From NCBI GenBank assembly GCA_963784355.1, contig CAWAQU010000012.1, forward strand, positions 135,760 through 199,759: a stretch of DNA of 64,000 nt. Direction: 5' to 3'. The stretch's first letter is position 1. Every line of letters starts with the position of its first letter. The translations under genes were made by a program, and so were the position numbers. The notes beneath the pieces were generated by a model. That model had not been told where the DNA came from, did no database searches, and was given only the letters and a program-made list of their open reading frames with translations. This document shows positions 41,926-60,400 of this stretch, in pieces. Source of the stretch: an uncultured bacterium. Its GTDB lineage: Bacteria; Patescibacteriota; JACMRA01.

Positions 41926-42603
41926 ATGTGTTGTCGCTTTGCTATTATCCCTGACAACATGAAAGCTAGATATAAACTAGAAGGAGAATTAATTGAGTTA
42001 ATACCAAATTACAACGCTGCGCCTGGTCAAAACTTGCCTTTAGTTGTACGAATTGAAAGAGAAAATAACTTAGATATAATGAGATGGGGTTTAGTTCCAC
42101 ACTGGAGCAAAGATGACAAGATAGAATATAAAATGATAAATGCTAGAAGTGAGACATTGCTAGAGAAAGCTTCTTTTAAGCATCCTTTTAAAAGCAAAAG
42201 ATGCCTGGTACCTATCTCAGGATTTTACGAGTGGAAGAGATTAGATGAAAAACATAAAATACCTTACTTTATACATCTTAAAGACGAATCAATATTATCT
42301 CTTGCTGGAATCTATGACTACTGGACTGAGCCAGTAACAAATCAAACTCTGACTACTTTTAGTATTATAACCGCTGAAGCAAATAAAGACATGCAAAGCT
42401 TACACGATAGAATGCCTGTAATTATAAACCCTAAAAATGAAGAGAAATATTTAGAAGCAGATGTTGAAACTGCTTATAGCCTCCTTAAGCCCAGTGACGA
42501 GAAACTAGATATTTATGAAGTTAGCAGGTTAGTAAATAGTCCGCAAAATAATAATGAAGAACTATTAAAACAAAGTAGTTATAAGATAATATGTTGGGAT
42601 TGA
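41926..42603 (+). CDS. SRAP (SOS response-associated peptidase, YedK/HMCES) abasic-site protein
   Basis: MCCRF N-terminus, YNAAPGQ, MRWGLVPHW, INARSET, GFYEW, HDRMPVI. Confidence 0.95.
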   Translation: MCCRFAIIPDNMKARYKLEGELIELIPNYNAAPGQNLPLVVRIERENNLDIMRWGLVPHWSKDDKIEYKMINARSETLLEKASFKHPFKSKRCLVPISGFYEWKRLDEKHKIPYFIHLKDESILSLAGIYDYWTEPVTNQTLTTFSIITAEANKDMQSLHDRMPVIINPKNEEKYLEADVETAYSLLKPSDEKLDIYEVSRLVNSPQNNNEELLKQSSYKIICWD

Positions 42604-43652: not shown

Positions 43653-44801
43653 ATGATTCAATTAATAGTAATTTTAATCACTCTTATTGGTTTAGCCATT
43701 ATTGTAGATAACTTTTTAGTCCCGGCTGTTTACAGGTTTAAGGATATTTTTAATTGGACTGATGATCAAACAGGTACTATCATATCTTTTGTTTCTTCTG
43801 CTCCTGAGCTGTCTGTTTCAGCTGTAGCTTTATTTTTAGCGGCAAGTAGTGGGGATGCAAATCAAGCTTCAATAGGTCCGGGTACAGTAATTGGATCGGC
43901 ACTATTTTCCATATTATTTATTGTAGGAGCTTCTGCCTGGTTTAATACCAAAAAATTATCTTGGCCTTCGGTAATCAGAGATATGGTGTATTACGTGATC
44001 TCGGTAGGTGTGGTATATTTAGTAGTATATGATTCTCAGATTCAACCTTGGGAACCCTTTATTTTATTGGGTATTTTTGCATTTTATTCATATCTTGTAT
44101 CACAATGGAAAAAAATACTTCGCTGGATAGATGATCATATTGATTCAACAGTAATAAATGAAGAAGCTGAAATTGCCAAGGAATTGAATAAAGAACTTGC
44201 AACTGAAGAAGAGCAAAAATTATCTATTAGAGAACAGCCTTTTACTACCAAAAACTTCCTTAAAAAAATATTGAGCTATTTGTTTTTTGATTTATACTCA
44301 AGTCAGAATAAAAAGAGTTTGGTCAAAATCAGCTGGAATATTATACTTTCCGTAGCTTTTGTTATCTTTTTTAGTACCTTGATGGTAAATAATGCAGAGA
44401 GTTTTGCGAGACTTTTGGGGATTTCACCCGTTATTATTAGTTTAACCATATTGGCAGCTGGTACTTCAGTTCCTGACTTACTGGCAAGTGTAAAAACGGC
44501 AAGAGAAGGTTTTGGGGACACTGCTATTGCTAATGCAGTAGGGAGTAACATTTTTGATATTTTAGCTAATTTAGGGCTTACTTGGTCAATAGGCATTATA
44601 ATCAGTAAAGGAAAAAATCTACCTGTTGATACAAATAATTTAAATTCTTCCATTGTTTTATTGCTAGCTGCCACAATCTCTCTGGTTTTGGTCATGATTG
44701 CCAAAAAGTTTAATTTAGGTAGGGTTGTAAGCGTGGTTTTAATGCTTAGTTACATTCTTTATGTGATTTATCAAGTATTGCTGGCTACAGGAAAGGTCTA
44801 A
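43653..44801 (+). CDS. calcium/sodium antiporter (CaCA family)
   Basis: Alpha repeats SSAPEL...GTVIGSALF and AAGTSVPD...ANAVGSNIFD. Confidence 0.93.
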   Translation: MIQLIVILITLIGLAIIVDNFLVPAVYRFKDIFNWTDDQTGTIISFVSSAPELSVSAVALFLAASSGDANQASIGPGTVIGSALFSILFIVGASAWFNTKKLSWPSVIRDMVYYVISVGVVYLVVYDSQIQPWEPFILLGIFAFYSYLVSQWKKILRWIDDHIDSTVINEEAEIAKELNKELATEEEQKLSIREQPFTTKNFLKKILSYLFFDLYSSQNKKSLVKISWNIILSVAFVIFFSTLMVNNAESFARLLGISPVIISLTILAAGTSVPDLLASVKTAREGFGDTAIANAVGSNIFDILANLGLTWSIGIIISKGKNLPVDTNNLNSSIVLLLAATISLVLVMIAKKFNLGRVVSVVLMLSYILYVIYQVLLATGKV

Positions 44802-44887
44802 ATGCTGCTTTGTATATAAATTGATATCGCAATAAGTCTCTTCACAAAGTTTGACAATTTCAAGATATTTTAGCTTAACTCTAATTA

Positions 44888-45625
44888 ATGTCCAATCTGC
44901 CTCAAGTTATCATTTTATACGGTCCACCTGCTGCTGGAAAAGGTACTCAAGCCCTGAGATTAAAAGAAATGCTTCCGGAAGACTATTATCATCTTGATTT
45001 TGGTACGGAACTTAGAAAATTTGTATCTGATTATTTGGGTGACTATAATAGCGATAAAGAAATAGTAAAAGAGGGGGCTGACCCTGAGAGTTTGGAAGTA
45101 GCCAGAAGAATGAAAGAGGATTTACCAAAAGGACCTGCTAGAACTGAAGACTTGAAATTTGTAGTTGAAAAAGCTTTTATAGAAAATATTTCTGCAGGTA
45201 AAAGTATGCTTGTAGAAGGACCCGGGAGATTGGTGGAGGAAGCAATTTGGCTGTCAGAATTTTTTGCAAAACATAACGTTTCAATTGCTATTTTCCATTT
45301 ACATCTAGATGTCGAAGCGGTAGTTGCTAGGGCTGTTCATAGGTTTTATATTCCTAGTAGTAAAAAACCTTTTGCATCATATGTAGAGGCCAAAGCAGAG
45401 GCTAAAGAAGGTGAGGAGCCTTATCAAAGAAAAGATGATTTAGATGTTGAGACTATTAGAGCAAGATTTAAAAGCTTATATACGGATCACTTTGCTAAAA
45501 TAATTAGTATTTATCAGCTTAATGCAAAAGCAATAGTTTTGACTCTAGATGCAGCTAAGCCTGTGAACGAGGTAACACAGGATATAAATACGTATTTGGA
45601 TGAATTTTTTGATTATAGAGGCTAG
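44888..45625 (+). CDS. adk: adenylate kinase / nucleoside monophosphate kinase
   Basis: ILYGPPAAGKGTQA, VEGPGR (DGFPR-like), YQRKDD...RARF. Confidence 0.8.
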   Translation: MSNLPQVIILYGPPAAGKGTQALRLKEMLPEDYYHLDFGTELRKFVSDYLGDYNSDKEIVKEGADPESLEVARRMKEDLPKGPARTEDLKFVVEKAFIENISAGKSMLVEGPGRLVEEAIWLSEFFAKHNVSIAIFHLHLDVEAVVARAVHRFYIPSSKKPFASYVEAKAEAKEGEEPYQRKDDLDVETIRARFKSLYTDHFAKIISIYQLNAKAIVLTLDAAKPVNEVTQDINTYLDEFFDYRG

Positions 45626-45681
45626 TTTTTCAAACAGCATTTTCTTGTAAACTTTTAAGTTTTACTCAAATCTAAGACAAA

Positions 45682-45708
45682 ACCTGCTTTTTACGGCAGG
45701 TAGTTTTT
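45682..45708. terminator. terminator between convergent adk and sod
   Basis: acctgct-tttta-cggcaggt, flanked by an A-run and agttttt. Confidence 0.6.
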
Positions 45709-45761
45709 AATGTGACTTGAATTACTAAAATTCAGATTCAAAGCTTGCTTTGATTAGTTTA

Positions 45762-46376
45762 TTACTTAGCTATAGCTTCATTGTATTTTTTGCTAACCAT
45801 ATCCCAATTGATCACGTTCCAAAATGCATTCATATAGTCAGGGCGTCTGTTTTGGTAATTCAAATAATAAGCGTGCTCCCAAACATCCATAGTTAGGATA
45901 GGGGTTTTGCCGTGCATTATTGGAGAGTCAGCATTTGCAGTTTTTTCTGCTACTAAATTACCGTCTTTATCTACGCTAAGCCAAGCCCAGCCGCTTCCAA
46001 ATTGTGTAGCTCCAAGATTGTTAAATTCTTGTTTAAAATTCTCAAAACTTCCAAAGGTTGAATTGATTTTTTCAGCTAATTCTCCTGTGGGCTCTCCACC
46101 TGCATTAGGTCCCATGCTTTCCCAGTAAACGTTGTGATTGTAAACTTGACCTCCATTGTTAATTACAGCTGATTTAATTTTTTCAGGCAGTACATCAACA
46201 CTTTTTAGTAAATCTTCAATGTTTAGAGCTAAAAGGTCATCATATTCAGTCAAAATCTCGTTTAGCTTGGTGACATAAGTCTGGTGATGCTTGTCATGGT
46301 GAAATTTAAGAGTATCAGCTCCAATATAGGGTTCTAGAGCTGTGTAATCGTAAGGTAGTGGCATTAATGTATACAT
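45762..46376 (-). CDS. sodA: superoxide dismutase (Mn/Fe)
   Basis: LPYDYTALEPYI, HHDKHHQTYV, NNGGQVYNH, FGSGWAWL, DVWEHAYY. Confidence 0.96.
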   Translation of the reverse strand: MYTLMPLPYDYTALEPYIGADTLKFHHDKHHQTYVTKLNEILTEYDDLLALNIEDLLKSVDVLPEKIKSAVINNGGQVYNHNVYWESMGPNAGGEPTGELAEKINSTFGSFENFKQEFNNLGATQFGSGWAWLSVDKDGNLVAEKTANADSPIMHGKTPILTMDVWEHAYYLNYQNRRPDYMNAFWNVINWDMVSKKYNEAIAK

Positions 46377-46501
46377 AAAATAGAATGTCTTGGTTGTTAT
46401 TTATTAACCTCTTTCCGTATTAAACTTGTTGGTCTAATTTAGAATGGATATAAACAAATAGTTGCAGAGTAATCAAAGTGTGTCAACTTTGGTGGGGAAA
46501 C

Positions 46502-47629
46502 TTAGTTCTCTTTGAGATAAGTAATATATTCTGGCTCATCCAAAAATCTATTTATAACAATAAAGATGTAGTAATATAAATTTTCTAAATATTCACGTAT
46601 CAATTTATCATTTCTCTTAAGCTTTGAAAAATTGCCATGAGCAATATCACACCTAATATTATAAATTTCTTTTAAATCTTCATTTAATTTTTTTAAATCA
46701 GTGTCTTTTGAGTAATCATGAATTAATATAGATAATTTTAATTTAAATTGTTTTGAAATTGATTCTTCAACATTAAATCTATTATAATCAGGGTTGTGGG
46801 TTAGTAGCATCTCAATAACACTAACCATACTTATAAATTGTATTTTATAGTCAGTGTTCCTGATATTATGTAGTAATTCACAAATATATAAAATTAATTC
46901 CCTGTCTTTTGTCTGTAAAATTTGTTTAAGTTTTGGTTTAAATGAGTTTAAATTTTTTATAAATAATTCAAAATCAAGGTGTATTGGCACTGTGTCACCT
47001 TCTATTATATTCGAACCTTCCATCCAGAGGAATAAGGTGTCTAGACTAATCTCATTCCTAGTACCAACTAAATTAGCAGATATATTCTTGAAAAACATTC
47101 TTGAGTTTGTTCTAAATAGCTCATAATGTGGTTTAGTGTGTGTTTTCAAATTAAAATAAAGGCATAATAAAGCTGTAAATTCAAAATATTCTTGAGCTTT
47201 AGCTATTGCTGGTACCAAAGTACGGTGAGTATAACTAGTTGTATCTATTGTATTTTCTAGTTCACTTTTTTGATCATATTGTTCATGTTTCTTGACGTTA
47301 ATCCTTAAAATAACCCACAACTTCCCTATTTTAGCTAAAGTAGTCTTCAAATCACCAGTCTCATTTTTAAAATTTAAATTCTGTTTATAATAAAACTTGT
47401 TCCATAGATAAAAACTTTGTTCTAATTGCTTTATATATGACTGTGATTGAATTTTATCAGAAATTTTAAGCAAGTACGCATCGCAATCGTTCAATAATAA
47501 TGTTACGATATAGTCTATCTCATCGTCAGTCCTAGGGTTATCTAAAACGTAGTCTAAGTCTTCTGAAAGTGTTAAGCTTTTATCTAATGGATAAATAAAA
47601 TTTGTTAGAATAAAAGGTGAGTTTTCCAT
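46502..47629 (-). CDS. ApeA-like HEPN domain protein (putative RNase)
   Basis: C-terminal QFISMVSVIEMLL...LKEIYNIRCDIAHGN (RxxxxH). Confidence 0.8.
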   Translation of the reverse strand: MENSPFILTNFIYPLDKSLTLSEDLDYVLDNPRTDDEIDYIVTLLLNDCDAYLLKISDKIQSQSYIKQLEQSFYLWNKFYYKQNLNFKNETGDLKTTLAKIGKLWVILRINVKKHEQYDQKSELENTIDTTSYTHRTLVPAIAKAQEYFEFTALLCLYFNLKTHTKPHYELFRTNSRMFFKNISANLVGTRNEISLDTLFLWMEGSNIIEGDTVPIHLDFELFIKNLNSFKPKLKQILQTKDRELILYICELLHNIRNTDYKIQFISMVSVIEMLLTHNPDYNRFNVEESISKQFKLKLSILIHDYSKDTDLKKLNEDLKEIYNIRCDIAHGNFSKLKRNDKLIREYLENLYYYIFIVINRFLDEPEYITYLKEN

Positions 47630-47650
47630 TACAATTAAAAGTAGTTAATT

Positions 47651-47824
47651 AGCTAAATGTAGTTTACAGTCAGTATCTGGTAAAAAAATTACAAACTCTA
47701 ATTACTTATGTAAAATTTACTGAGCATTATTTTACAAGCTACTCCACACTTGATCCATTCATAGTGGTGTGCTGTTTTTCCCTTCAGCTCGGGTTGATAC
47801 TCGCCCTATAAACTACATTTAACT
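47651..47824 (-). ncRNA. candidate structured RNA downstream of the DIP1984-family gene
   Basis: 19-bp closing helix agttaaatgtagtttatag / ctgtaaactacatttagct (2 G-U pairs on the minus-strand RNA), plus internal helices. Confidence 0.65.
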
Positions 47825-47826
47825 GA

Positions 47827-48282
47827 CTAAATAAGGTCAGTAGTCCAATTTAACGATTGAATTTTAGCTTCCAGTTCTCGTCTTTTTTTACTTAAATTAT
47901 CTAGCGATTTTCTATACTCAGGTACATCAACACTTGGGAAAATGCGTATTTCTGTTTTAGTGTAAGGCTGGACTAAGTTTGATGCTTTTTCTAAAAACTG
48001 CCTAAGAATTTTTATTTCCGCGTCTGCAACATCTCTTTCTACAATAAGCTCAGAAAGTGATTTACCACTCTCATCTTTACTAATTGTATTGGCAAAATTA
48101 ATCTTCTGCACTAAATCTTGATATTCAGTCAATATTTTTCGCAATTTACTAAATAATTCCTCTGGTTTTTCTGCCAAAATACCATTTTCTTGAATTTGAG
48201 CATTTGCTTGTAGCCGATACTCAAGTTGAGCAATATTTTTTTGTAAGTCTGCTCGAATAATTAAAGCTTCAGATAATTTCAT
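47827..48282 (-). CDS. DIP1984-family protein
   Basis: MKLSEALIIRADLQK...NAQIQE...KINFAN...LSELIVERD...YTKTEI...IQSLNWTTDL. Confidence 0.88.
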   Translation of the reverse strand: MKLSEALIIRADLQKNIAQLEYRLQANAQIQENGILAEKPEELFSKLRKILTEYQDLVQKINFANTISKDESGKSLSELIVERDVADAEIKILRQFLEKASNLVQPYTKTEIRIFPSVDVPEYRKSLDNLSKKRRELEAKIQSLNWTTDLI

Positions 48283-48385
48283 ATAAAATTTTATAGATGT
48301 ATATAAGGCTAATTTACTTTAGTGTGTCAAATTTATGTTGAGGTAAAAGTTGATATAAAAAATATTTGAAATGTGTAGTTTTGTC

Positions 48386-50203
48386 CTAGAAGAATTTATT
48401 TGGAAGTGCTTTTTTAATTTGATTGTATTTCTTAGTTACTTTTGAAGTTCTTTTTACATCTCTAAATTTAGTTGGAAAAAAATTGTGTATTTCACCATTA
48501 AACTTTTTTTCTTTTAAAATGTTAATTATTTCTTCCAAATATCCCAAACCAAATAGTGCCAGTTCCTCAAAAAACACAGCATCCTGAGACCTATCCATTA
48601 GGTCACTCAATAAGTGTTTAAAACTTAAACTATTTGAAAATGGTGTGCGTAAAAATTCATTATTAGTGTTATTAACTATAAGCAAAGTATTTCTAAAATA
48701 AGATTTTATATGTTCTACAGCATAAGGTTTTTTTACATGTAAATCTTTATCTTCTGAAAATGGATAAGCAATATAATCTGGAGCTCTTAGCCAGAACCAC
48801 TCACTTTTATATAGAATATCAAACAAATTATTTATATTTTTTGTACAAATAGAAACATAATAGTTTTTGATATTCTCCTTAACCTTAATTGTTCCTTCAT
48901 TATAGAAGTCATGAATTATTTCGTTCATTGAATAATTATAATATCCTAAAACTTCATTGATTAAATAAACATTTTTTGTTCTAAATACTTCTTTTCCTAT
49001 ATTAAAAACTAAATTTGGAAAAAAATTCATTTCATTTTCAACATCATGTTTGAAATATTGGTACTCTGAAAAACTCTCTTCGATTATTTCTGAATCTTCT
49101 TTTTCGTTTAAACTATGTAACATTTCTATAGTTTGTGTTGCCATGCCAGTTCTCACCATCACATAGCCATTATTATATTTTTCACGAAAACTTTCATATA
49201 GATTATGAATAAATTTATCAGCAATAAGATCATGGAAACCCTCTTTCTTGATACCAGCTACAAAAAGTTTTTCAATTTTTTCAGAATATCTATATCTATA
49301 GCCCCTTTTCAAACTTACTTGCATATTATGCTTATGAAGATGATAAGGTATCCGCAAACTAAAATTCAAACATAAATTATATATGTTCCGTCTATTTTGC
49401 TCAATTGCTTCAAACCCTACAAAACGGATCCAATTCATAAAATAGTCACAGGACTGAGCTAGGTTAAAATCAATATTTTCAATTTGAATATTTTTTTCAT
49501 CCTTAATTTTTACTATTCCTTCGTAATATTTTATTCTATCAATTAAAAATTCTAATTTTTTATCAAAATATACTGTTAAAAACTTGACGTTATCATTAAC
49601 TACCAAATTTCTTAAAAACTCTCTAATTTCAAGCTCATCTGAATTATATAGAAAATCGGAAATTATATTTGGATCATTTAGTGATAATGTTGTTTTATAA
49701 ATTTTTGGTATTAATATTAATAGCGAAATAACTAAAGTAACTATACCTAGTAAGAAAAATCTGACGAATTTAAATTCAAAATAACCTATTCTTGAGAGTA
49801 AAATTGAAAAAATAAATATTAAAATATTAAACAAATATAACTGAATTAAAAAGTTTAAGGGTGACTTTCTAATAAGATATTTAATACCTAAAAATCCAAC
49901 AAAATTTTGTGATCTTTCGGTTATAAAAATAAATACTGTAAAAACAATAGATATAATTCCACCTAAAAGTCCGACAGCTAAACTAGAAAATTGAATTACT
50001 AAATCTGGATCTACGTTGATCTTTGCATTCAAAAAACCTGTATTTGGTATATACAATAGAGCGATAATAGTAGCAATTAAGAAAAACAATAAAATAAATA
50101 CATGGTTTAGAATATATAAGTTTTTTGACTTATAAAAATATTTAATTTTTCCAGAATATCGCCATTTATACAACCTAATTTTTTCTATTAATTTATTAAT
50201 CAT
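48386..50203 (-). CDS. membrane protein (4 TM + large helical cytoplasmic domain), possibly DUF2254-like
   Basis: 605-aa, very AT-rich ORF with N-terminal TM helices. Confidence 0.7.
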   Translation of the reverse strand: MINKLIEKIRLYKWRYSGKIKYFYKSKNLYILNHVFILLFFLIATIIALLYIPNTGFLNAKINVDPDLVIQFSSLAVGLLGGIISIVFTVFIFITERSQNFVGFLGIKYLIRKSPLNFLIQLYLFNILIFIFSILLSRIGYFEFKFVRFFLLGIVTLVISLLILIPKIYKTTLSLNDPNIISDFLYNSDELEIREFLRNLVVNDNVKFLTVYFDKKLEFLIDRIKYYEGIVKIKDEKNIQIENIDFNLAQSCDYFMNWIRFVGFEAIEQNRRNIYNLCLNFSLRIPYHLHKHNMQVSLKRGYRYRYSEKIEKLFVAGIKKEGFHDLIADKFIHNLYESFREKYNNGYVMVRTGMATQTIEMLHSLNEKEDSEIIEESFSEYQYFKHDVENEMNFFPNLVFNIGKEVFRTKNVYLINEVLGYYNYSMNEIIHDFYNEGTIKVKENIKNYYVSICTKNINNLFDILYKSEWFWLRAPDYIAYPFSEDKDLHVKKPYAVEHIKSYFRNTLLIVNNTNNEFLRTPFSNSLSFKHLLSDLMDRSQDAVFFEELALFGLGYLEEIINILKEKKFNGEIHNFFPTKFRDVKRTSKVTKKYNQIKKALPNKFF

Positions 50204-50405
50204 AAAAAATCATTATAATTTTCCACGTTGTACATTTTGCCGATTTTGTAAGAATATTTTAGGGCCATATTGCTTGCAGGCTAATAAATTGTTATACTTA
50301 AATAAATGAATTTACACTTTTTTTATTTTTTAAGATTACTTGTGTTTTTTGCCGAATAGAGGGGATTAATATTATTTATTCTAGATAGCATATTACCTCT
50401 ACTTC

Positions 50406-50648
50406 CTATCCTGTGGGGATTTCTACAAATTCATCAAAAGGCATTGTAGCTTTAGAATAATTTGGATCACCTGATTGCTCACCAAAATCTTGTATACCAT
50501 AAACAATCATTTCATTTAAGTTAAGATCAACATACGATATTTCTCCATTATCCCACATTAAAACCCAGCGTTTACGATCTATTCCGTTTACTAATTCTTT
50601 AATTTTATCAATTTTATTTTCCTTGATTTTTTTGATAATATGGTCCAA
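50406..50648 (-). CDS. hypothetical / degenerate immunity-like fragment
   Basis: 80-aa ORF with a TTG start only; the frame stays open a little upstream until a TAA. Lies in the post-toxin array. Confidence 0.45.
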   Translation of the reverse strand: MDHIIKKIKENKIDKIKELVNGIDRKRWVLMWDNGEISYVDLNLNEMIVYGIQDFGEQSGDPNYSKATMPFDEFVEIPTG

Positions 50649-50788
50649 TTTGTTTTTGATTTGGTCTAAAACTGTAGGATCTTCATAATTCAGTATTATA
50701 AGAACTTACAATTAGTGAATCATATAAATCAAGTGTATACCATACCTGTCACGATCAATTATTTTTATAGTTATATTTACTTCTCACA

Positions 50789-51146
50789 CTAAATATAATT
50801 TTCAACACTTGGCTTAATTACCATCTCCCATACTTCTTGAGGAGTATTAAATCTGCCTGTTTCCTGCCATCCAACAGATGCGTAAGTGTGAATTAATAGG
50901 TATTTATTTTCGTACTCACAAATATAATCATCTGAACCAAAATCCCTCATAAGTGGAATTAGTTTACCATTATAAGCTTGATTTATACATATCATTAATA
51001 GTTTTAGAAGTCTGGTCATAATCTTTATTATCAAACATTAGTTGCCAGTCTTTAGCGATATTGATGTATTTGCTATACAAGTCTTGTTGATGTAGATATC
51101 CATTTAATTCTGTTGCTAATTTGGTTGGTTTGAATATTTCATTCAT
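50789..51146 (-). pseudogene. frameshifted paralogue of the immunity-like gene
   Basis: ATG 51146 MNEIFKPTKLATELNGYLHQQDLYSKY...INDMY, an extra A near 50984, then NQAYNGKLIPLMRDFGSDDYICEY...FNTPQEVWEMVIKP. Confidence 0.75.
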
Positions 51147-51474
51147 GAATCAATTTTTTAATTACATTATCCCAAACTTCTTCTGCTGTATCATAAATTT
51201 GATAGGATACATCTGGAGGTAATCTCCATGTGTTTAGTACTACATATTTTTCATTCCACACAAATAAAACTTTATCACTGTAACCAAGATCAACAATTGG
51301 TACTAATTCCCGATTAAAATAATTATGAAAAGTGTTATTAAATTGATCAATTAAATCTTGTTCAAATGAATGGGGATTCACAGCTAAGGAGTGGGAATTA
51401 TTTAACCTGAATTCATTATACAAAGGCTGTTTTTCTAAAAAAGCTTTTAAGTTGCTTATTTGTTCTGTTTTCAT
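51139..51474 (-). CDS. putative cognate immunity protein
   Basis: 111-aa ORF starting 8 nt after the toxin stop; similar to the next gene (LVPIVDLGYSD...YDTAEEVWDNVIK). Confidence 0.7.
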   Translation of the reverse strand: MKTEQISNLKAFLEKQPLYNEFRLNNSHSLAVNPHSFEQDLIDQFNNTFHNYFNRELVPIVDLGYSDKVLFVWNEKYVVLNTWRLPPDVSYQIYDTAEEVWDNVIKKLIHE

Positions 51475-51482
51475 AATTAAAA

Positions 51483-54400
51483 TTACTTTATACTTGGATT
51501 ATTAAATGTACCATTTATACTGTCATTTAAAACTGGCTTGTTTATAGCTCGAGTAGTTCTATTAGTGATAGCCTCGCCCCAGGTTTTAGCAAATGTACCA
51601 TTTGTCTCGTTTTTAAATCGATTTACCATATAGTCAGGCAAGGGATCTGTAGCGTTGTGGATTATTACCTTTGCATCAATTCCTGCATTTTTTGCGGCAA
51701 TTAATCTTGTATTATCTATTGACGTAAATACACCGTCAGACATTTTTACAATGTCAATTGGGTCACCAATCCAACCATTTTTTACCATACTGTTATATAT
51801 AATGTTATAATCTGCAATATCAACAAATGCTTGGCTAAACCTTATTTCAATACTCTTTTTAAACTCAATAATTGATTTTACTATCCTTCTAGCCTGATTA
51901 ATAATGATATAGTCATTACCATTTTTTATAATTTTACTGAATTTAAAAAAGTTTGTATCATCAGCATTATCCACAAACTGAAGTGCATCAGAGGCAGATA
52001 CTCCAACTGCATCAGCAGATAACCAGCGTATGGTTACAGATTTCCCGAACAAATCAATAGTCTCGTCAATATATCTGGCAAACTTGTTTACTAACAAATT
52101 ACTTGCCGATATTACTTTAGTAAATAGAAGTTCAACTTTTGTAAAGTTCACTGCAGTTTGAAATACCTTCAAATCTTTTGCTAAAACTGAAATAGTTTTT
52201 GTCGCTGCTACAATTTCTCCAACTCCAATAAATAATGAACCCACATTAACTACAGTTGCCCCAAACATCTTACCAAATATCTCCAGCCTTTCTTGAATAC
52301 TCTTAGTTTTGTAATCATCATAAAACTTAGCTAAGTAGCTTTGAGTGATCTGAGTAATAGCATCCCAATTATTTACTATCTCCGAATTTAGGATTGTGCC
52401 CGTTAAAGTACTAGGTAAATTACCATTAAATGCAGCAAAACTAAGCAAAGCAATCTGCATAGATGATAAATCCTGTAATTTTGCTTTTAGATAGTTCAAC
52501 AGGTTAGTCCAGAAGTTCATGTCAGTAATCTTGCTCATTGCAAACTTACTAAGCTCACCGAAAGTTTTAGGTATTTCTGCTATACCCTTAATAGTATCTG
52601 CTACAGTCTGAGCTGAGCCTTGGATAATACCCCATAATAAATAAACAGTATTTTGTATTTTAGTAAGTAAATCCTGATACTTTGATGCCTGACACTCTAC
52701 TTGGCCTTTTAACCAATTAAATATATCATTTACATTATTTGGAATTAACTTACGCAAGCAAGGATCAGAATTTGTAAGAGTTTGTAGAATAGGAACTATA
52801 GTTTGATTTAAGTCACTGTCTACTTGATTAGACAACAAGCTTACGATATCATTAAGTGATCTATTATCTGATTCAAACAGTGCGGTATTTCCTACTTTAC
52901 TTCTAGTATCTTCCGGTGGTAAATCTTCAAGATCAATGTCACCACTTCCAGTACCTCCAGTTCCACCACCTGTACCGCTGTCTACAACCTCATCAGCGTC
53001 GGTAGCATTGGTATTACAGAAATAGTTTTTCTGGTCCGTAGTAGTTACGTTACCACTACCTTGGTATAGATAATTACCTGGATTTACATACACTCCGTTT
53101 TGCAATAAAGCAAAGTGTAAATGAGGTGCGGTTGAATCTCCAGTCGCCCCCATGATACCGATTTGTTGACCTGCAGCTACAGTTTGGCCTTCTATTACTT
53201 TTACTTCAGGTGAAAGATGAGCATAGAGAGATACTAAACCTCCGCCATGGTCAATTTTTACAACATTTGCAAATCCTCCGTAAGCACCTTTGGCACTAGC
53301 TGCATCAGTCTTACCGTAGTTGTTGGTGAAGCTATTTACTACCTTGATCACTGTACCACCTTTTACGGCTAAAACAGGTTGAGTGTATGGATCTCCACTT
53401 ACTGCCACATCAATACCATTATGTCCTGGTCTTGAACTAGTTTGGAATCCTGAAGACACAACTGCTTGAGCACTTTGAATCGGATTTGCCCAACCTGTAC
53501 TAGAGACAGAACCACTGCATGAAGGACAAGCTTTGGTAGTGATGCTTGTTTGAGCTGTAGTTGAAACATTTCCTGCTCTATCAGTAAGCTTGACTGCAAT
53601 TGTGTAAGTAGCTCCTCCACAAGCTAGATTTGTGCCCAAAATATCACTGGTTTGGTACATACCCGTATCCGGTATGGTTATGGTTCTAGAGGTATTTAAA
53701 TTAGCTGAAGTTGATGTAATTTGAATATCAGCTCTGGTTTTAGCTTCTCCTTGGATTTTCAATCCTAATTTTTCATATAGATCATAAGTAACAGGGGTTT
53801 TAGTGGCAGTTAGGGTAGGGGAAGCAGGACTCACACTATCCCTCTCAACCATCTTCTCAGCCCAACCACTCGTACTAACTCCACCACTCCCACTTCCCAT
53901 CACATTCCCCGCACTATCCGAACTTCTCACCCTAATCAAATACAATCCATCACTACACTTTCCAAGTCTTCTATTCTTAATCGGAATATTAGTAGGGTTA
54001 GTAGCGCCCGTTGTACCAGTATTTGTACTCTCCACCTCTTGAATACAACTAGCTCCTCTACTCTCATCAGTACTTCCATTTCCTAGATTAACTGTATACT
54101 TACCTCTTGTACTATCCCAAACTACTGCTCCAGTGCCTCCACTTCCTGCAACCCCATCAACCCTTGTCATCTTGGTATTATACGTAGTACTAGGAGTTGT
54201 ACCACTTCCTCCATTTATTCCACTAAGATCAAACCCATTCATAAATACTCTACTACCAACTAAACCTGCTCCAGTAGTTACATTACTACTATTTTCTCTA
54301 CCACTAGTTAGATTACCATATTGATACTGAATATCACTTCTCTCATCAGAAGCATGAGTAGCTACTACTCTAACATCTTTAGTAATAGGAGTCTGACCAA

Positions 54401-57400
54401 AAGTAAGGTTAGTTGGACTAATTCCTTGATTGATAAAGCTGTTTTCAATACCTTGATCTACAATAGTACCGGGGTTGATAGTTGTGGTTGTGGTTACAGT
54501 TCCGGTACTTGAGGTTGAAGTTGTTCCATTTACAGTACTACTTCCATAACTATTAGAAGCAAAATCAGAAATACCTACACTTATTGGAGCTTTAGTATCA
54601 TGATAAACAGTAAGAGTTCTACTTCTAGTTTGATTGATAAAGCTATCTTTGTCAGTAGGGGTGATACCTGTTGTAGTTGCTGAGTTAACTACTGTACCTG
54701 GGTTATTCCTATCCTGCAAAGCTGAGTGGAAAGAAAGATTGCCTGCTAAATCTACTGTATAGAAAGAAAGTTGATAGTTGTTGATTGGATTATTACTGAC
54801 ATCAGCTGCCTTACCATCATCAGGGAAAACAAAAGTAAATTTAACCAAACACTTATCTTTAAACTTAGTAACAATTAGATTAGAACCGGGTAGGGGTTGG
54901 CTAGTGTTGTTATCAACAAATGTACCATATTTATCACTACTTACATCAGTACTACCTGTAGTGGTGCAACTTACAGCAGGGTTTGTAGCAGAAGCGTCCA
55001 ATAGTCTATACTGCTCTGTATCAGGGCTGATACTACCGTTTCCATTACCACTACTATTAGCTCCAGTATACTTGTAACCCATCACTACTCTTTGATTTTT
55101 CTCTACAGAGGTATTTAAAGTGATTTGGTTGGCCTTTAATGTATATACAGGGGTGTATTTGTCCGTATCTTGATTAGTTTGCTGGCCGGATTCATTAAAC
55201 CTGGTTTTGAGGTTATCAAAGGCCTTCTCAGTACAAGCCCTACTTAATCTCACATTTGGTGTAGCAGAAGTTGCCGAAGTAGTTGAACCACTGGGACCAT
55301 TGTCAAAGGAATTAAAGTATCTTTGATCAGTTAGGTTTCTATCAGTTTCCGGAGTTAGACCATTGGCACATAATCCGTCTAAACTATCTCCCCAGCCTGT
55401 CAGTTCAAAATCACCTTTTACAGTATTTGTGTTATCAATGAATAAACTGAAATCCAGACTCTTGCTTCTAGCTTGTTGATTATATGGGTAGCTCTTTGGA
55501 ATTGCTGCAGTATCTGAGCCTAGTCTTGTTGGGCCTGCTTGAGCCAGGGGTACCCCAAAGAATATATCTTTTTGCGTTTGAGTTAGATTGGCTTGGGTGG
55601 TGGTATTGGTCTGAACGTCGGTAGTAAGGAGGAAATCAGTATCAAGCAGTTTTTTAGTACCTACATTTTTACTGTGAATTTGCGTACCCATGTAACCTTT
55701 TGTACTGTTTGGTCTCATGCTTTTTAAGATACCCAAAAGATCATCCTGTTTGGTTTGGTTGTTTGTAAATAGAATTTGATTACCGGCTAAGTCCTGTAAA
55801 TATACGCTTGGGTAATAGACACCTTCACCATTTGGTCTATTGATAGTCAGGTTGGCACTATGGATGGTATCGGCCAGATATTTATAATGGCATGAATAAG
55901 GTACATTGATATTATTTTTCAAGTCATAAGCACTGTAAGTAGAACAGGCTACAGCTTGTCCTGTGATCGGATTTACAAAGTCGCCTAAACCTGACTCAGC
56001 TTTATTATTGACATTTTCGGGGTCGCATGGATCGTTAATGCTCATTGCCATCACAGTACCGCCTTCTTTTTTGGTATTACATTCAAAGCCCACTTCATTA
56101 AATATGGAAGATTCTGTGGTTTCTTCATCAGTTTTAAACGTGAATTTTACTTGATCCCCACTATGTATCCAAGGATTAGTTGAAAATTCGTTGTTTAGGG
56201 AATTTGATTGAGTTTGTACCCAGTTGAGTTCGGGAGTTTTGCGATCGTATTTTATCTTATAGTTGTATATAGTGTTGGCAACCGCGGGTCCGACTGAAGC
56301 AGATAGAGAGACGGTGTAAGTCTTTTCGGTGCCTTCGGGTATTTCAGGCAAGGTCAAAGAATTACTAAAAATACCGATGTTGTTGGCTTTAGTAGCTTCA
56401 CCACCTGTAGTTTGATAGACTATTGTCGCACCGTCTTTAATAGTTAGATTGATGTCTGCTTGAGGGTCAGTAGCGCCATATAGTTTGATAATATTAGAGT
56501 TGGTATAAAGAGTAGTAGTGTTATTAACCGGATTGGTAAGTTTGTATACCGGTCTCATTTCATAACATACATCTGAATTTGCCATTTCAGCTACAAAACA
56601 ATTACGATCTTCCTTCAAACTTCTTTTTTCCATTTTAAGTAGAGTAGGAGTGTAGGGCTTGACTCCACTAACTTCAAAAGCAACATATTTATCCAAAATG
56701 CTTTCACCTTTGTATGATCTAATTCTAGCCTGATAACTACCCCCAAGCACATCACTGTCCTGTCCTAAAAGGTAGTTGAAAGTCCAAGTACAGCCACTAT
56801 CCTGATTACATTTATTGGCGTAGCCTAGTTCTTTAGCTGATAAATAATAGGTTTTACCTGCTACATCAACTTTTTTTAAGGTATCTTTTTGGTTTTTCTT
56901 TATAATTGTATCAAGCGTAGGATTTAGACTGCCATTGTCTTCAGCCAGATTGTTGATAGAGCTGATACGTTTGATTGGTACTGGGTTATAATTGGCATCG
57001 GTTTGGGCAGTATTTAAACCATTTACATTTCCAATTAAATCAATATCTGCTGCCTCGGTATTTTTGTCCACATTGACTTTGAAAGTAATATATTTCAGGT
57101 CTTGCAGTTTTAAATATTTGTTATTAAGTGGTGTTTGATTGATAAATGCATCCAGTTCATCTTTGGAATTCAATCCTGCTAAATTGGAGGTCGCCGTCGC
57201 ACTTAGGTTTTGTGTAGATTCGGCTGTGAGAGTTACAGGATCGGAATTTTCAGTAGTATGTCCTAAGTTGTCACTAGCTTTTACTGTAAGCACGTAGTTT
57301 CTAGTTATAGTATCCACTGCAGTAGTTAGAATACCTGAAAAGAAACCTGTGGTTGTGACTTGTGTATTGGCCTTAACTTCACATACCCCATCCCCGTTAG

Positions 57401-60400
57401 GGTAGGTAGTTGTCTTTTCATCCAGACAAATGTTGGCGGTCCAAATACGAGGCATTACAGTAGTTGCTGTATCACTTGGGGTAGCTGCACCCTGGACAGT
57501 TACTACGCCTTTTGTGGTGGTATAGCCATTTTGTGGAGTCTGAATTATGGGCTTACTGTTGACGGGCAGGGAAGTTATGGAGCGAATTACTGTAGATGTA
57601 GTTGCATAGGTTTTTTCATTAGCCAATTTAATTTTAAATACGTAGCTATAGTTTGCGTCAGGAACTCTAGCACCTAGGCTCAAACCATGATTGTTTGCTG
57701 TAGTGGAGGCTACATTTACTTTACCGTCCCAGTAGAAATTGTTTGGAACACTGACTATATTGTTTCCAAATACAGTGCTACCGACGACAAGTGGGTCAGG
57801 GTACTGCCACATCAATCTGCCACCTGCATCTCTTATTTCTGCTCTGTAGTCAGCTTGTACGGGTGTCTCTGCTCCGTTTAAAGTACTATAAACTTTATTA
57901 CTGAAATTGACTGTATCAAATTTGCCGTCATTGTTTGGAGATATTGTGTTTCTTTCAGGACTGGAAACTATATTTACAGCACCCACATCCACTCGAATAT
58001 TACGGTTTAAAGTGGCCATGTTACCTAGATTTACGGCATCAATTTTTAGTTGATTGAGCTTTGGAGTGGTCAGGTCCGCAGAGTTATCTACTAAACTAAT
58101 CTTTAATTCATAATCACATACCTCTTTATCAGGAGTTTGCGGATTATTATCATGATCAACAAATTTATTACAGGTGAATTTTATTGGACTGCCTACATAA
58201 GTTAGAGTTCTGCCAGCTTCTACGCCCTCAGCGGACATAGTCTGTGAAGACAAATTCAACTCTTCAGGTAAAATGTTATTTTTACTAGGATCTACAGCTA
58301 TTCTGATAAATCTACCTAGAGTGCTATTATATATTTTCAACTGGCTGGATTTTTCAACTGTGCCCTTGACTATGGTAAAATTGTTGATGGTAATGTCTTC
58401 TTTTGGCTCACTCCATTGTAAATAAGTGTTGGTTTTAACTGTAAAGGCCTGGTCAAAATTTTGGTAAGCTGTGGTGTCAGCTCCACACTTTATCTCGGTA
58501 TTTATATTGGCCAAGTCTTTCGAACAAATCTGATTACCAGCAATATCGGTAGCTCTGACAAATAGCTTATAGCTAGCCTCACTGCTGAGCTCTTTGATAT
58601 CAAATTTACAGGTGACTTCATCGCTTTTTTTGTTGAGGTTGGGAGCGGTAGCCGGAATTGTAAAGTTACAACTCAAATTTTCGGCTAGTCTTTTTTTGCT
58701 GCTTGGATCGGTAACTGGTTGGCCATCTCTAAACAAAGGTAATTCTTTAGAAGTAGTCCAATTATCGAGAGTTTGTAGTAAAGAAACATCATAGCCGGTA
58801 GGATAGGTACCTATTGTAAGTCCTGAGGTCTGTTTATCATCTGCACCGACCTTATTGTCTTGTATTTTAAATCCTAAGCTAAAATCTTTAGTATTGTATT
58901 GAGTCTGTTGATTGATTGCAACTATACTAGGTTTAGTATCTTCATAGTTAAAATTGAAACTAGAAACACTTGTATTTTGCAACTTATCTTTGGCTTCAAA
59001 AGTGAAGGTATTTAAACCTTTATCTAAAATCTCGTTATTTAAAGAAAAATTGGGATTGGTATTTAGGTTTACCGGAACTGATTTATAAGCATAGCCGGTG
59101 GAGTTTGGTGTGGTACTTACAACATCCTTTTTTACTTTAAGTGAGTCAAAATTGTTGTTGCCTCCTGTTTTAGTAATGATTCCTCCAGATAAATTAATTG
59201 TAGATTTATTGACCCATCCGTCTACTTTGGGGTAGGATATATTTATATCGTTGGCTTTGGTGTCTATGGCTACAAAATTGTTTCCGGCTAGAGTGTAGCT
59301 TTCGTTGCCTGCTTTATCATAAGCTCTTACATCAATGGTGTAAAAACCGTCTTCCATATCTTGTCCTTGTTCATTTTTACCGTTCCAGATTGCTGTTAAA
59401 GTATATTTATCACTGTTGTCTTTGGTAAATGCTTGACTGTTACATGGATATGTAGTAGTTGTGTCCGGTAGTTTTACACATCTAGCTAAGCTGAGCACAG
59501 TTTTATCACTTAAAGTCGGTTGCTTATTTGTATCATCTTTATTCACATCAGTCCATCCGGTCCAGCTTATACCATCACTAGTTGATCTTTGCTTCAATTT
59601 GTTAGTACCTCGCTCAATAAAACTTTGGTATAAATTGCCATCGGAAATTTGAAATACAGGTACTTTATCTGAAGACATGAAATCAGTATGCCAACCTCCG
59701 AAATTTTCTCCGTCACCCTCCCTGGTAAACACGTATTTTTCATTATGAGCTCCAGTGATAGTTTGAAACCATTTTCCTTTAAATACAACACCTGCAACTT
59801 CATCCCAAGTGGAGCCTCCAGTATGTTTCCAACCGGTCCAGGTAGATCCGTCGCTGGAATACCTAGTGTAAATCAAACTATCTGTACCTCTGACTACTTG
59901 ATATAGCTTGCCGTTTAGTATATTTGTTTGAACTTTATTAAGTATATTACCTCCTCTTTCAAACCAGCCTCCCCATTCAATTTGACCTGTGGTATTGTTG
60001 TAAGTACCTACAGTCATAGCAATTGAATCAGTAACATTACCTCTAGTAGCGTAAAATAGCTTGTTTTGGAAAGTTACTAAAGACGGTTCACTAGTAGTTG
60101 AATCTCCTCCGTTTATCGAACTCCAAGTGGTTGGCCAGGTGATACCGTCGGTTGAACTTCTAAATACGTTTCTATTTGTATCTTTTTCTCTGGCAGCTTG
60201 GTATAAATTGTCATTTAAAACAGCCATTTGTACATTACCCGTAATACTACCTGTAGTGGCTACCCAATTAGACCAGACAATACCATCACCGGAGTTTCTG
60301 ATTATCGGAGTCCCATTTTGATTTTTGGCTTGGAAAAGTCTATTTTTAAATTTAATTTGAGTAATATAATTTCCGTCTTTATCTAAGATTCTTGTAGCCT

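What the first reader, a model, noticed from the sequence alone, without database searches (positions are those of the whole stretch)
47651..47824. Structured ~175-nt RNA immediately after the DIP1984-family gene: candidate ribonucleoprotein system
Seen: starting 2 nt after the stop, AGUUAAAUGUAGUUUAUAG (47824-47806) pairs over 19 bp with CUGUAAACUACAUUUAGCU (47669-47651). The only two non-Watson-Crick positions are G-U on the gene's strand (A-C on the other), which points to selection on RNA rather than a DNA palindrome. Inside are AGUAUC/GAUACU, GAGC/GCUC, GCUG/CAGC and CACAC/GUGUG helices, and GUAA recurs five times at ~9-23-nt spacing in the 3' half. It has no ORF and is too long for a terminator. 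Known: DIP1984-family proteins are helical and of unknown function. Inference: the protein oligomerises on its own cis-encoded RNA (repeated GUAA sites), forming an undescribed RNP, possibly defensive.
Basis: partly seen in the sequence, partly recalled or inferred. Interest (0 to 1): 0.85.

Follow-up and report, generated by a model that had tools for sequence, protein, structure and literature searches.

The report
New folded RNA partnered with DIP1984 gene
The stretch right after this small gene of unknown function is a divergent copy of a large, conserved, uncatalogued folded RNA that accompanies the same gene family across many bacterial phyla and at least one archaeon, so RNA and protein very probably work together.

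Summary
A 19-bp helix (two G-U pairs) closes a ~175-nt non-coding stretch 2 nt after the DIP1984/DUF6847 stop. It folds better than all 200 shuffles (z -4.4) and is single-copy in its genome.

It is not an isolated oddity. In 76 of 83 other DIP1984 loci, a covariance model finds the same ~165-220-nt motif right after the gene, on the gene's strand. That model was built from 50 sequences that exclude the window, and it hits the window at 50.3 bits (E 6e-16).

The model's helices covary strongly: 84% of cells pair, against 33-42% when the partners are slid. G-U outnumbers A-C 83:32.

In two samples of 121 genomes each, all 18 RNA hits lie next to a strong DIP1984 gene, and every strong gene has the RNA. 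No Rfam family matches.

The window's copy is a subtype. It lacks the family's G-rich 3' tail and tRNA-like T-arm and has a lengthened closing helix instead.

Best reading: a dedicated RNA partner made from the gene's own transcript, forming an RNA-protein particle. The association is shown. Binding, oligomerisation on GUA repeats and any defence role are not. MITE, terminator and leader-of-the-next-gene readings are rejected.

The parts
47827..48282 (-). DIP1984 / DUF6847 family gene (151 aa), the partner gene of the RNA
   Evidence: PF20935 E 1.7e-42, 145 bits, cut-off 27. NF038048 E 1.6e-43. Solved relative 3kdq, function unknown.
47651..47824 (-). The covariance-model match covers 47661-47814.
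   Evidence: R1 hit of 50.3 bits, E 6.3e-16, model positions 9-175 of 197. The window was not in the seed. Fold z -4.37.
47806..47824 (-). Closing helix P1, 5' strand. The family-equivalent core is 47806-47813. 47814-47824 is an extension peculiar to this subtype.
   Evidence: The extension replaces the unpaired GGUA leader of the family. One compensatory A-U to C-G change against L009.
47651..47669 (-). Closing helix P1, 3' strand. The core is 47662-47669. The extension 47651-47661 stands where the family has its G-rich tail.
47802..47805 (-). Conserved GGYG internal loop between P1 and P2. C47803 pairs with G47671.
   Evidence: Family columns 36-224 covary: CG 26, UA 15. The window was read by homology.
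47796..47801 (-). P2 5' strand (AGUAUC)
   Evidence: Long-range helix. Five of its six modelled pairs are 88-100% paired in 50 sequences with 10-20 double changes each. The window differs from the consensus GGCA/UGCC by compensatory changes. C-G to U-A against L009.
47672..47677 (-). P2 3' strand (GAUACU), followed by GA and then P1
47769..47790 (-). P3 hairpin (GCUG/CAGC core) with a 10-nt purine-rich loop
   Evidence: Aligned to family helix 51-55/71-76, 87% paired.
47735..47752 (-). P4 hairpin (CAAGU/GCUUG) with loop GUGGAGUA. GAGU at 47741-47744 is the proposed pseudoknot strand.
   Evidence: My reading from the sequence and from L009, which has the same stem and loop GCGGAGCA. The model skipped this stretch. 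Family P4 is 87% paired.
47722..47725 (-). GCUC within the conserved GCYCAGUA block, pseudoknot partner of the P4 loop
   Evidence: The centre pair of the family pseudoknot covaries: GC 43, AU 15, CG 10, GU 3, all 71 cells standard. On the MAFFT alignment 90% of cells pair.
47679..47734 (-). Conserved 3' region of unresolved structure. It holds four GUA(A) sites (47731-47734, 47717-47720, 47702-47705, 47689-47692), UUACA, and UUUACC in place of the family's UUACUACC.
   Evidence: Aligned with high posterior probability to the model. Family consensus.
46502..47629 (-). Next gene (375 aa), starting 21 nt after the helix. It is not part of the conserved module.
   Evidence: L009 and 80 other loci have different genes here. 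Only a sub-threshold HEPN_MAE_28990 match: E 0.0013, 19.4 bits, cut-off 26.8.

Best explanation
The element is a divergent member (no G-rich tail, no T-arm, lengthened closing helix) of a widespread, uncatalogued family of ~165-220-nt structured RNAs. These RNAs are genetically locked to DIP1984/DUF6847 genes.

Shown:
- The RNA lies on the gene's strand and typically starts a few bases after the stop codon.
- Its helices covary.
- RNA and gene occur together and only together in the genomes sampled.
- The module moves as a unit between very different genomic contexts and phyla.

Inferred:
- The RNA is made as the 3' part of the DIP1984 transcript.
- It folds into a compact body: two stacked closing helices, two or three hairpins, and a loop-to-strand pseudoknot.
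- It is bound by the newly made, probably dimeric, protein to form a dedicated RNA-protein particle.
- The closing helix, together with the G-rich tail in the main type or a longer helix here, defines and protects the RNA's ends.

What the particle does is unknown. The sporadic, horizontally spread distribution and the tRNA-like half of the main type suggest an accessory module that deals with tRNA-like RNA, or a selfish or conflict function.

My odds: member of this RNA family 0.95; functional partner of the DIP1984 protein in some way 0.85; physical RNA-protein particle 0.55.
For: 1. Homology. Model R1 was built from 50 relatives that exclude the window and L009. It hits window 47661-47814(-) at 50.3 bits, E 6.3e-16.

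2. Family.
- 76 of 83 other DIP1984 loci have a hit of 32-185 bits just after the gene on its strand. 26 of these were not in the seed.
- The gap from stop codon to hit has a median of 6 nt (72 distinct RNAs).

3. RNA structure.
- 29 modelled pairs: 84.4% of 1277 cells pair, against 32.6-42.5% when slid.
- Covariation score 0.509, against 0.07-0.14.
- 28 of 29 pairs show double changes; 0 of 500 shuffles reach the score.
- G-U 83 against A-C 32.
- One further covarying loop-strand pair.

4. Coupling to the gene.
- In 121 genomes around G028: 9 RNA hits, all next to the 9 full-length DIP1984 genes; 112 genomes have neither.
- In 121 genomes around G029: 9 RNA hits, all 17-20 nt after the 9 strong DIP1984 genes.

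5. Not tied to other genes. Upstream neighbours of 73 loci are heterogeneous. L009 (protein 79% identical) has the element but a different next gene.

6. Selection, window against L009.
- Element 150/175 identical (85.7%).
- Coding sequence 75.2% (third positions 55.3%).
- Flank 41%.
- Compensatory changes in P1 and P2.

7. Position independence. In G074 the RNA lies upstream of the gene.

8. Protein. A homodimer prediction scores 0.74.
- Best of 3 controls 0.00; runs agree in at least 98% of contacts; partner pLDDT at least 89.
- The mark was reached by 20 of 30 proteins solved as pairs of one chain and by 1 of 23 solved as single chains.
- Relative 3kdq was solved with four chains, so the pass may be from memory.

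9. A distant DUF6847 branch without detectable RNA is instead abutted by a B3/4 (PheRS-beta tRNA-binding/editing domain) gene in 3 of 3 loci examined.
Against: - No direct evidence that the RNA is expressed, processed or bound.
- The protein is not basic: median pI 5.8 over 67 relatives, 6.4 here. It has no known RNA-binding fold; the only Foldseek PDB matches at E <= 0.001 are chains of 3kdq.
- Adjacency and co-inheritance would equally fit a purely cis-acting element of the mRNA.
- This copy lacks two of the family's most conserved parts, the G tail and the T-arm.
- 6 of 83 loci (Bacteroidales) and the A. baumannii plasmid type are missed or barely seen by the model. There, homology rests on my reading and on folds.
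- Genomes within a sample are related, so the co-occurrence counts are not independent events.
- The structure between P4/P5 and P2 is unresolved.
Confidence: 0.6

Rival explanations
1. It is a purely cis-acting part of the DIP1984 mRNA. A structured 3' UTR sets the transcript's end, stability or translation, perhaps as an operator for autoregulation by the protein. No separate RNA-protein particle with a function of its own exists.
For: - The RNA starts a median of 6 nt after the stop codon, so a terminating ribosome would open P1.
- 25 of 72 loci have a terminator-like hairpin within 130 nt after the RNA, against 8 of 72 control windows.
- There is no room for an own promoter.
- In the window the extended helix overlaps the stop codon.
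Against: - About 190 nt with five covarying helices, a pseudoknot and invariant single-stranded blocks is far more than stabilisers or operators usually need.
- The motif works from the other side of the gene in G074.
- Sequence conservation across phyla exceeds that of the coding region.
Confidence: 0.2
2. It is a two-part toxin-antitoxin or anti-phage module. The protein is a toxin or effector, and the RNA is its protein-binding antidote or sensor, in the manner of type III systems. This is a special case of the particle reading.
For: - Sporadic, horizontally spread distribution: 2 of 27 genomes in the order, 2 of 401 in the phylum, 8 of 121 and 9 of 121 in two other families.
- 366 plasmid records, 340 of them Acinetobacter, mostly small plasmids.
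- Some neighbours are conflict genes: ParE, Fic, GNAT, Imm11.
- The window's neighbours include a HEPN-like gene.
Against: - No PADLOC match at E <= 0.1.
- No nuclease or other toxin signature.
- The RNA is a single complex unit after the gene, not a tandem array before it (TRF finds none).
- Most neighbours are ordinary metabolic genes.
- Only 5 phage records.
Confidence: 0.15
3. It is a leader or riboswitch of the downstream 375-aa HEPN-like gene, or an insulator between the two genes.
For: Only 21 nt separate the helix from the next start codon, and no terminator lies between them.
Against: The element travels with DIP1984. L009 has it with an Imm11-like gene downstream. In other loci the next gene differs, is often convergent, or lies behind a terminator.
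Confidence: 0.03
4. It is a DNA-level element: a MITE or other inverted-repeat relic, a recombination site or a plain terminator.
For: A 19-bp terminal inverted repeat around ~136 bp has the layout of a MITE.
Against: - One copy in the 1.14-Mb assembly.
- No copy in 25 genomes of the family.
- Always beside one gene family and on its strand.
- Internal helices covary with a G-U excess of 83:32.
- The stem is A-U rich without a U tract, and the scan finds 0 terminators.
Confidence: 0.02

Closest known systems
OLE RNA with its Oap partner proteins (recalled from the literature, not tested here)
   Same: A large, highly conserved, complex-folded bacterial non-coding RNA. It is encoded next to the gene of a dedicated partner protein of otherwise unknown family, and was discovered by comparative genomics before any function was known.
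   Different: - The sequence and fold are unrelated, and no Rfam match of any kind was found.
- This RNA is about a third of the size.
- It follows its partner gene.
- The partner is a small soluble helical protein.
- The distribution spans many phyla and an archaeon.
Bacterial Y RNA (YrlA) with Ro60/Rsr (recalled)
   Same: - A long stem formed by the RNA's two ends closes a body.
- In the main type that body contains a tRNA-like T-arm.
- The RNA is encoded beside the gene of its protein.
   Different: - No Rfam Y RNA or YrlA match.
- The partner is DUF6847, not a Ro ring.
- The T-arm is optional: a GTTCNA word occurs in 50 of 84, and it is absent in the window.
- There is a pseudoknot and a G-rich tail.
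Type III toxin-antitoxin systems such as ToxIN (recalled)
   Same: A two-part protein + RNA module, sporadic and plasmid-borne, with both parts made from one transcript.
   Different: No tandem RNA repeats, the RNA lies after rather than before the gene, and no endoribonuclease family is detected.
Retron msr-msd RNA (recalled)
   Same: Inverted repeats at the two ends close a ~150-200-nt structured non-coding RNA encoded beside its protein gene.
   Different: No reverse transcriptase in the window's flanking ORFs or in 73 upstream neighbours of relatives.
tRNA / tmRNA
   Same: The main type has a 5-bp stem with a 7-nt loop. After 0-4 nt comes a 4-5-bp stem with a UUCGAAU loop. This is the layout of a tRNA's anticodon arm and T-arm.
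   Different: - ARAGORN finds nothing in the window at 46000-49000.
- The Rfam tRNA model does not hit the motif in 10 loci.
- There is no acceptor stem.
- The window's copy has no T-arm.

Membership tests
   The window aligns over model positions 9-175 with both helices formed. Covariation of both helices in 50 relatives.
   Starts 2 nt after the stop codon. Same arrangement in 76 of 83 loci and in 18 of 18 hits in two genome samples, one of them upstream of the gene.
   P3 and the 3' blocks are aligned by the model. P4 and the pseudoknot (GAGU with GCUC) are my reading, shared with L009. Family support.
   Present in 68 of 84 by pattern. Absent in the window and L009, where a longer P1 stands in its place. 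Also absent in the A. baumannii plasmid copy. The window is therefore a tail-less subtype.
   Found in 50 of 84 by pattern, so it is optional. Absent in the window.
Any Rfam 15 family | Covariance-model match | tested here: not met
   No match at E <= 1 in window 44000-52000. In 10 relatives' loci, 6 matches at E <= 0.1, none on the motif.
Retron non-coding RNA | Adjacent reverse transcriptase gene | tested here: not met
   No RT domain in the flanking ORFs or in 73 upstream neighbours. Downstream neighbours of relatives were not scanned.
MITE / transposon relic | Several copies in a genome, beside unrelated genes | tested here: not met
   1 match in G000. None covering the element in 25 genomes of the family.
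Intrinsic terminator | Short G+C-rich hairpin followed by a U tract | tested here: not met
   0 terminator-like sites in 46400-50400. The helix is 19 bp, A-U rich, and encloses 136 nt.
Type III toxin-antitoxin | Tandem array of RNA repeats upstream of an endoribonuclease toxin | tested here: not met
   TRF finds 0 arrays in 47500-48000. The RNA lies after the gene. No toxin family detected.
DIP1984 family protein (NF038048 / PF20935) | Full-length match above the curated cut-off | tested here: met
   148.4 bits (cut-off 70) over residues 2-150. 145.2 bits (cut-off 27).

The most novel reading that the evidence does not exclude
DIP1984 proteins and this RNA form a previously unrecognised, self-contained and horizontally mobile ribonucleoprotein found in many bacterial phyla and in archaea. 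Its RNA core imitates half of a tRNA: an anticodon-arm-like hairpin whose loop is clamped by an internal 'codon-like' strand, plus an optional T-arm. The particle would sense, sequester or act on tRNA or the tRNA-handling machinery. Possible roles are a stress, plasmid-maintenance or conflict module. The RNA-less sister branch of the protein family achieves the same through a B3/4 tRNA-binding partner protein.
Probability: 0.25. Interest if true: 0.9.

Novelty: categorically new. Interest (0 to 1): 0.8.

Why it matters
Large, complex-folded bacterial RNAs with a dedicated protein are rare, and each one characterised so far has opened new biology.

This one gives a first functional handle on a protein family that has had a crystal structure since 2009 (3kdq) but no function. 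The family is misannotated as 'septicolysin' and sits on hundreds of small Acinetobacter plasmids and in gut, rumen, soil and archaeal genomes.

The pair is small: a 150-aa protein and an RNA of about 190 nt, which makes it directly testable. The covariance model made here allows the RNA to be annotated. The tail-less subtype in this window shows which parts of the RNA are dispensable.

Tried and rejected
- **Rfam:** no family matches, in the window or in 10 relatives.
- **tRNA/tmRNA:** none found.
- **DNA-level relatives in the family's 25 genomes:** only 26-50-nt A+T-rich matches, in 4 genomes.
- **Expression:** no RNA holder listed. One soil DNA run holds 0.28 of the words.
- **Promoter scan:** 29 sites against 27.6 expected, so uninformative.
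- **RNAalifold on a MAFFT alignment:** gave only part of the structure, so helices were curated by hand from covariation scans.
- **Pairing of the 5' GGUA with ...UACC:** no covariation.
- **Pairing of the G tail with the AUCUCC block:** always G against C/U without informative changes, and Desulfovibrionaceae copies have the tail but not the block.
- **A target for the tail in the gene's own 5' region:** no conserved C-rich motif in 23 upstream regions.
- **Helices within the GYA/UUACA region:** none convincing. The four Y positions change together with lineage.
- **Protein fold:** the only Foldseek PDB matches at E <= 0.001 are two chains of 3kdq (rmsd 17 A), and everything else has E > 0.1. 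The ESM Atlas gives unnamed clusters only.
- **Literature:**
  - DIP1984, DUF6847, PF20935 and 3KDQ occur in 3 papers, none on function (listing only).
  - 'Septicolysin' occurs in 35 papers. The 20 listed include Acinetobacter plasmid and genome surveys, Clostridium septicum, termite gut and Malassezia papers, and none concerns this RNA.
  - No listed paper joins septicolysin with RNA terms.
  - PMC12297434 was read in passages only and is irrelevant.
- **Model R1 on divergent loci:** it does not recognise the Segatella-type loci or L087 even with filters off. That those carry a related element rests on a fold with the same two stacked closing helices.

Full report
**What is in the window.** All features lie on the minus strand.
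- A 151-aa gene (47827-48282) is a full-length DIP1984/DUF6847 family member: PF20935 E 1.7e-42, NF038048 E 1.6e-43.
- Its stop codon is followed after 2 nt by 174 nt of non-coding sequence (47824-47651).
- 21 nt further on, a 375-aa gene begins (46502-47629).
- The ends of the non-coding stretch pair over 19 bp with exactly two G-U pairs on the gene's strand. The repeat finder extends the arms to 28 nt at 82% strict complementarity.
- The stretch folds to -52.8 kcal/mol, against -36.5 +/- 3.7 for 200 shuffles, none of which is as good.

**It is not a repeat, a terminator or a known RNA.**
- The element occurs once in the 1.14-Mb, 13-contig, 81%-complete assembly.
- In 25 other genomes of the taxonomic family it has only short A+T-rich look-alikes.
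- No terminator-like site was found in 46400-50400, no tandem array, and no tRNA or tmRNA.
- No Rfam 15 family matches at E <= 1.

**The decisive step: relatives.**
- A metagenome contig (L009) encodes a DIP1984 protein 79% identical to the window's. It carries a clearly homologous element after the stop codon, with a still longer closing helix, but a different gene downstream, an Imm11-like gene.
- Between the two, the element is 150/175 identical (85.7%). The coding sequence is 75.2% identical (third codon positions 55.3%) and the flank beyond the element 41%.
- Substitutions include compensatory changes in P1 (A-U to C-G) and P2 (C-G to U-A), and two G-U to G-C changes.
- 80 further DIP1984 loci came from species-representative genomes. 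They include Clostridia, Bacilli, Bacteroidales, Treponema, Desulfovibrionaceae, Dehalococcoidales, Moraxellaceae and a Methanomassiliicoccaceae archaeon. Their first 300 nt after the stop turned out to share a conserved motif.

**Anatomy of the family** (50-sequence alignment A2). In order, the motif contains:
- an unpaired GGUA;
- P1, the closing helix, variable in sequence;
- a GGYG / RA internal loop with one covarying pair;
- P2, a long-range helix;
- an AUCUCC-like strand;
- P3, a hairpin with a UGAGAAUGA loop;
- P4, a hairpin with a 5-bp stem and a 7-nt loop of the form NNGNGCR;
- in many copies P5, a perfect tRNA-type T-arm;
- a block GCYCAGUA;
- three UUAC(A) and four GYA sites;
- UUACUACC;
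- the 3' strands of P2 and P1;
- a nearly invariant tail GAGGGyGGGnnnGGGGA.

By simple patterns, 68 of 84 downstream regions have the tail and 50 of 84 have a GTTCNA word.

**Evidence that the helices are real RNA helices**.
- For the 29 pairs of P1-P5, 84.4% of 1277 cells are standard pairs, against 32.6-42.5% when the partners are slid by 1-3 columns.
- The covariation score is 0.509, against 0.07-0.14.
- 28 of 29 pairs show changes on both sides, and 0 of 500 shuffles reach the observed score.
- The sequences are related, so these are not independent events.
- G-U/U-G cells outnumber A-C/C-A 83 to 32, which points to RNA on the gene's strand.
- A scan of the model-based alignment found one more covarying contact. 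The P4 loop's G-N-G-C pairs with G-C-N-C of the GCYCAGUA block, forming a pseudoknot. Its centre pair is GC 43, AU 15, CG 10, GU 3, all standard. On the MAFFT alignment the centre pair is GC 31, AU 8, GU 2, other 4.
- I could not resolve the structure of the GYA/UUACA region.

**Membership of the window's element.**
- Covariance model R1 has 197 positions and 29 pairs. Its seed contains neither the window nor L009.
- It matches window 47661-47814(-) at 50.3 bits, E 6.3e-16, over model positions 9-175. This covers P1, the GGCG loop, P2 (AGUAUC/GAUACU, compensatory relative to the consensus GGCA/UGCC), P3 and the whole 3' conserved region, but not the tail.
- By my reading, P4 is CAAGU/GCUUG (47752-47735) with loop GUGGAGUA. 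Its GAGU pairs with GCUC at 47725-47722. L009 has the same stem and GAGC in the loop.
- The window and L009 lack the T-arm and the G tail. In their place P1 is lengthened: the family's unpaired GGUA region now pairs with new 3' sequence.
- Tail-less copies with long closing helices also occur after the DIP1984 gene of small Acinetobacter plasmids (L092). This rests on my reading, 17.3 bits with filters off and a fold. A fold suggests the same in Segatella, although the model does not recognise that type.
- A relative in the window's own order (L008) has an A+T-rich copy with the tail.

**Coupling to the gene.**
- R1 finds the motif just after the gene, on its strand, in 76 of 83 loci. 26 of these were outside the seed.
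- The misses are six Bacteroidales-type loci and the weak L008.
- The gap between stop codon and match has a median of 6 nt (72 distinct RNAs).
- 25 of 72 have a terminator-like hairpin with a T-run within 130 nt after the RNA, against 8 of 72 control windows.
- In a sample of 121 genomes of the family around G028, there are 9 RNA hits in 8 genomes and 9 full-length DIP1984 genes in the same 8 genomes, always adjacent. One gene fragment has no RNA, and 112 genomes have neither.
- In 121 genomes around G029, 9 RNA hits lie 17-20 nt after the 9 strongly scoring genes.
- In one genome (G074) the order is reversed: adenosine deaminase gene, then RNA, then DIP1984 gene. The G tail lies about 20 nt before the start codon.
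- Upstream neighbours of 73 loci share no family.

The conserved unit is therefore the gene plus the RNA, and nothing else.

**Distribution.**
- The gene occurs in 2 of 27 genomes of the window's order and 2 of 401 of its phylum, one of them marginal. The module is therefore a rare, probably horizontally acquired guest here.
- It is on 366 plasmid records, 340 of them Acinetobacter, and in 5 phage-collection records.
- It has no PADLOC match.

**The protein.**
- The AlphaFold model has pLDDT 80.8, with four long helices and two short strands.
- The only significant Foldseek PDB matches (E <= 0.001) are chains of its own family's structure 3kdq.
- Median pI is 5.8.
- A two-copy prediction supports, but does not show, a homodimer. 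The score is 0.74 and the best of 3 controls 0.00. The runs agree in at least 98% of contacts and the partner pLDDT is at least 89. The mark was reached by 20 of 30 proteins solved as pairs of one chain and by 1 of 23 solved as single chains.
- Because 3kdq was solved with four chains, this pass may reflect memory of that structure.
- A lead from a sister branch: 18 of the 121 genomes around G029 have a weakly scoring DUF6847 paralogue (28-35 bits) with no RNA hit. In all 3 loci that I examined, the gene abutting it upstream encodes a B3/4 domain, the tRNA-binding/editing domain of PheRS beta. This fits the tRNA-like P4-P5 half of the main RNA type and hints at dealings with tRNA-like RNA. It is an inference from gene neighbourhood only.

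**How it most likely works.**
- Shown: a conserved, covarying RNA structure on the gene's strand, in obligatory linkage with one protein family.
- Inferred: the RNA is transcribed with the gene. The terminating ribosome sits on P1, so the RNA folds as the protein is released and the two assemble in cis into a particle. The stacked P1-P2 stem, plus the G tail or here a longer stem, protects the RNA's ends. The repeated GYA sites and invariant loops are candidate protein contacts.
- The biochemical role is unknown.

Rivals:
- A purely cis-acting UTR element (0.2) is weakened by the motif's size and complexity and by the reversed order in G074.
- A toxin-antitoxin or defence module (0.15, a sub-case of the particle reading) fits the sporadic, plasmid-rich distribution but has no direct support.
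- The leader-of-the-next-gene reading (0.03) and DNA-level readings (0.02) are rejected.

**Comparison and novelty.**
- It resembles other orphan RNA-plus-partner-protein systems, recalled from the literature: OLE with the Oap proteins and Y RNA with Ro.
- It fails the defining features of retrons (no RT), type III TA systems (no repeat array, no RNase), MITEs, terminators and every Rfam family.
- Literature searches found no description of the RNA or of the protein's function. Papers outside the searchable library cannot be excluded.
- An earlier report of this scan on another genome (e1-5621310) reached the same general conclusion. I re-derived it independently here. It is an unchecked AI note, not support.

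Noticed in passing
window 46502-47629 (-): A 375-aa protein directly downstream has an R-x4-H motif (RCDIAH) near its C-terminus. It has only a sub-threshold HEPN_MAE_28990 match: E 0.0013, 19.4 bits against a cut-off of 26.8. It may be a divergent HEPN nuclease and is not conserved next to the module elsewhere.
   Followed up: partly
window 51483-63956 (-), 51139-51474 (-), 48386-50203 (-): A 4157-aa protein has a Peptidase_M23 domain and an Ig-like domain in its last 1000 residues. It is followed by a 111-aa protein and a 605-aa multi-pass membrane protein, neither with any Pfam family. This may be a cell-surface or conflict locus upstream of the module.
   Followed up: partly
L095 264-1505, L096 307-1527, L097 275-1496: A distant, weakly scoring DUF6847 branch (171-202 aa, 28-36 bits) has no detectable RNA motif. 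In 3 of 3 loci examined it is abutted upstream by a B3/4-domain gene (PF03483). 18 such genomes occur among the 121 sampled.
   Followed up: partly
L091 1477-1664 (-) = G074:C1:12976-13163: This is the one case in which the RNA motif lies upstream of the DIP1984 gene, between an adenosine deaminase gene and the DIP1984 start, instead of after it.
   Followed up: yes
G028:C3:250547-250745 and G028:C16:28272-28491: One rumen Lachnospiraceae genome carries two complete gene + RNA modules at separate loci.
   Followed up: no
L021, L037, L051, L076, L081 (first 40-70 nt after the stop): In some loci a separate G+C-rich hairpin sits between the stop codon and the RNA motif. It may be a partial terminator or a processing site.
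   Followed up: no
L010 1282-1724: The DIP1984 gene of this metagenome contig is split into two overlapping frames (1282-1527 and 1488-1724). This is a frameshift or an assembly error, and the RNA motif after it is intact (96.8 bits).
   Followed up: no
L092 (NC_025110.1 6332-6793 and about 220 nt after it): The 'septicolysin'/DIP1984 gene of the common ~8.7-kb Acinetobacter baumannii plasmids is followed by a tail-less copy of the motif in a 495-nt stretch annotated as empty.
   Followed up: partly
window 41926-42603 (+): An SRAP (SOS-response associated peptidase) gene, E 2.1e-68. It is ordinary and unrelated to the finding.
   Followed up: no
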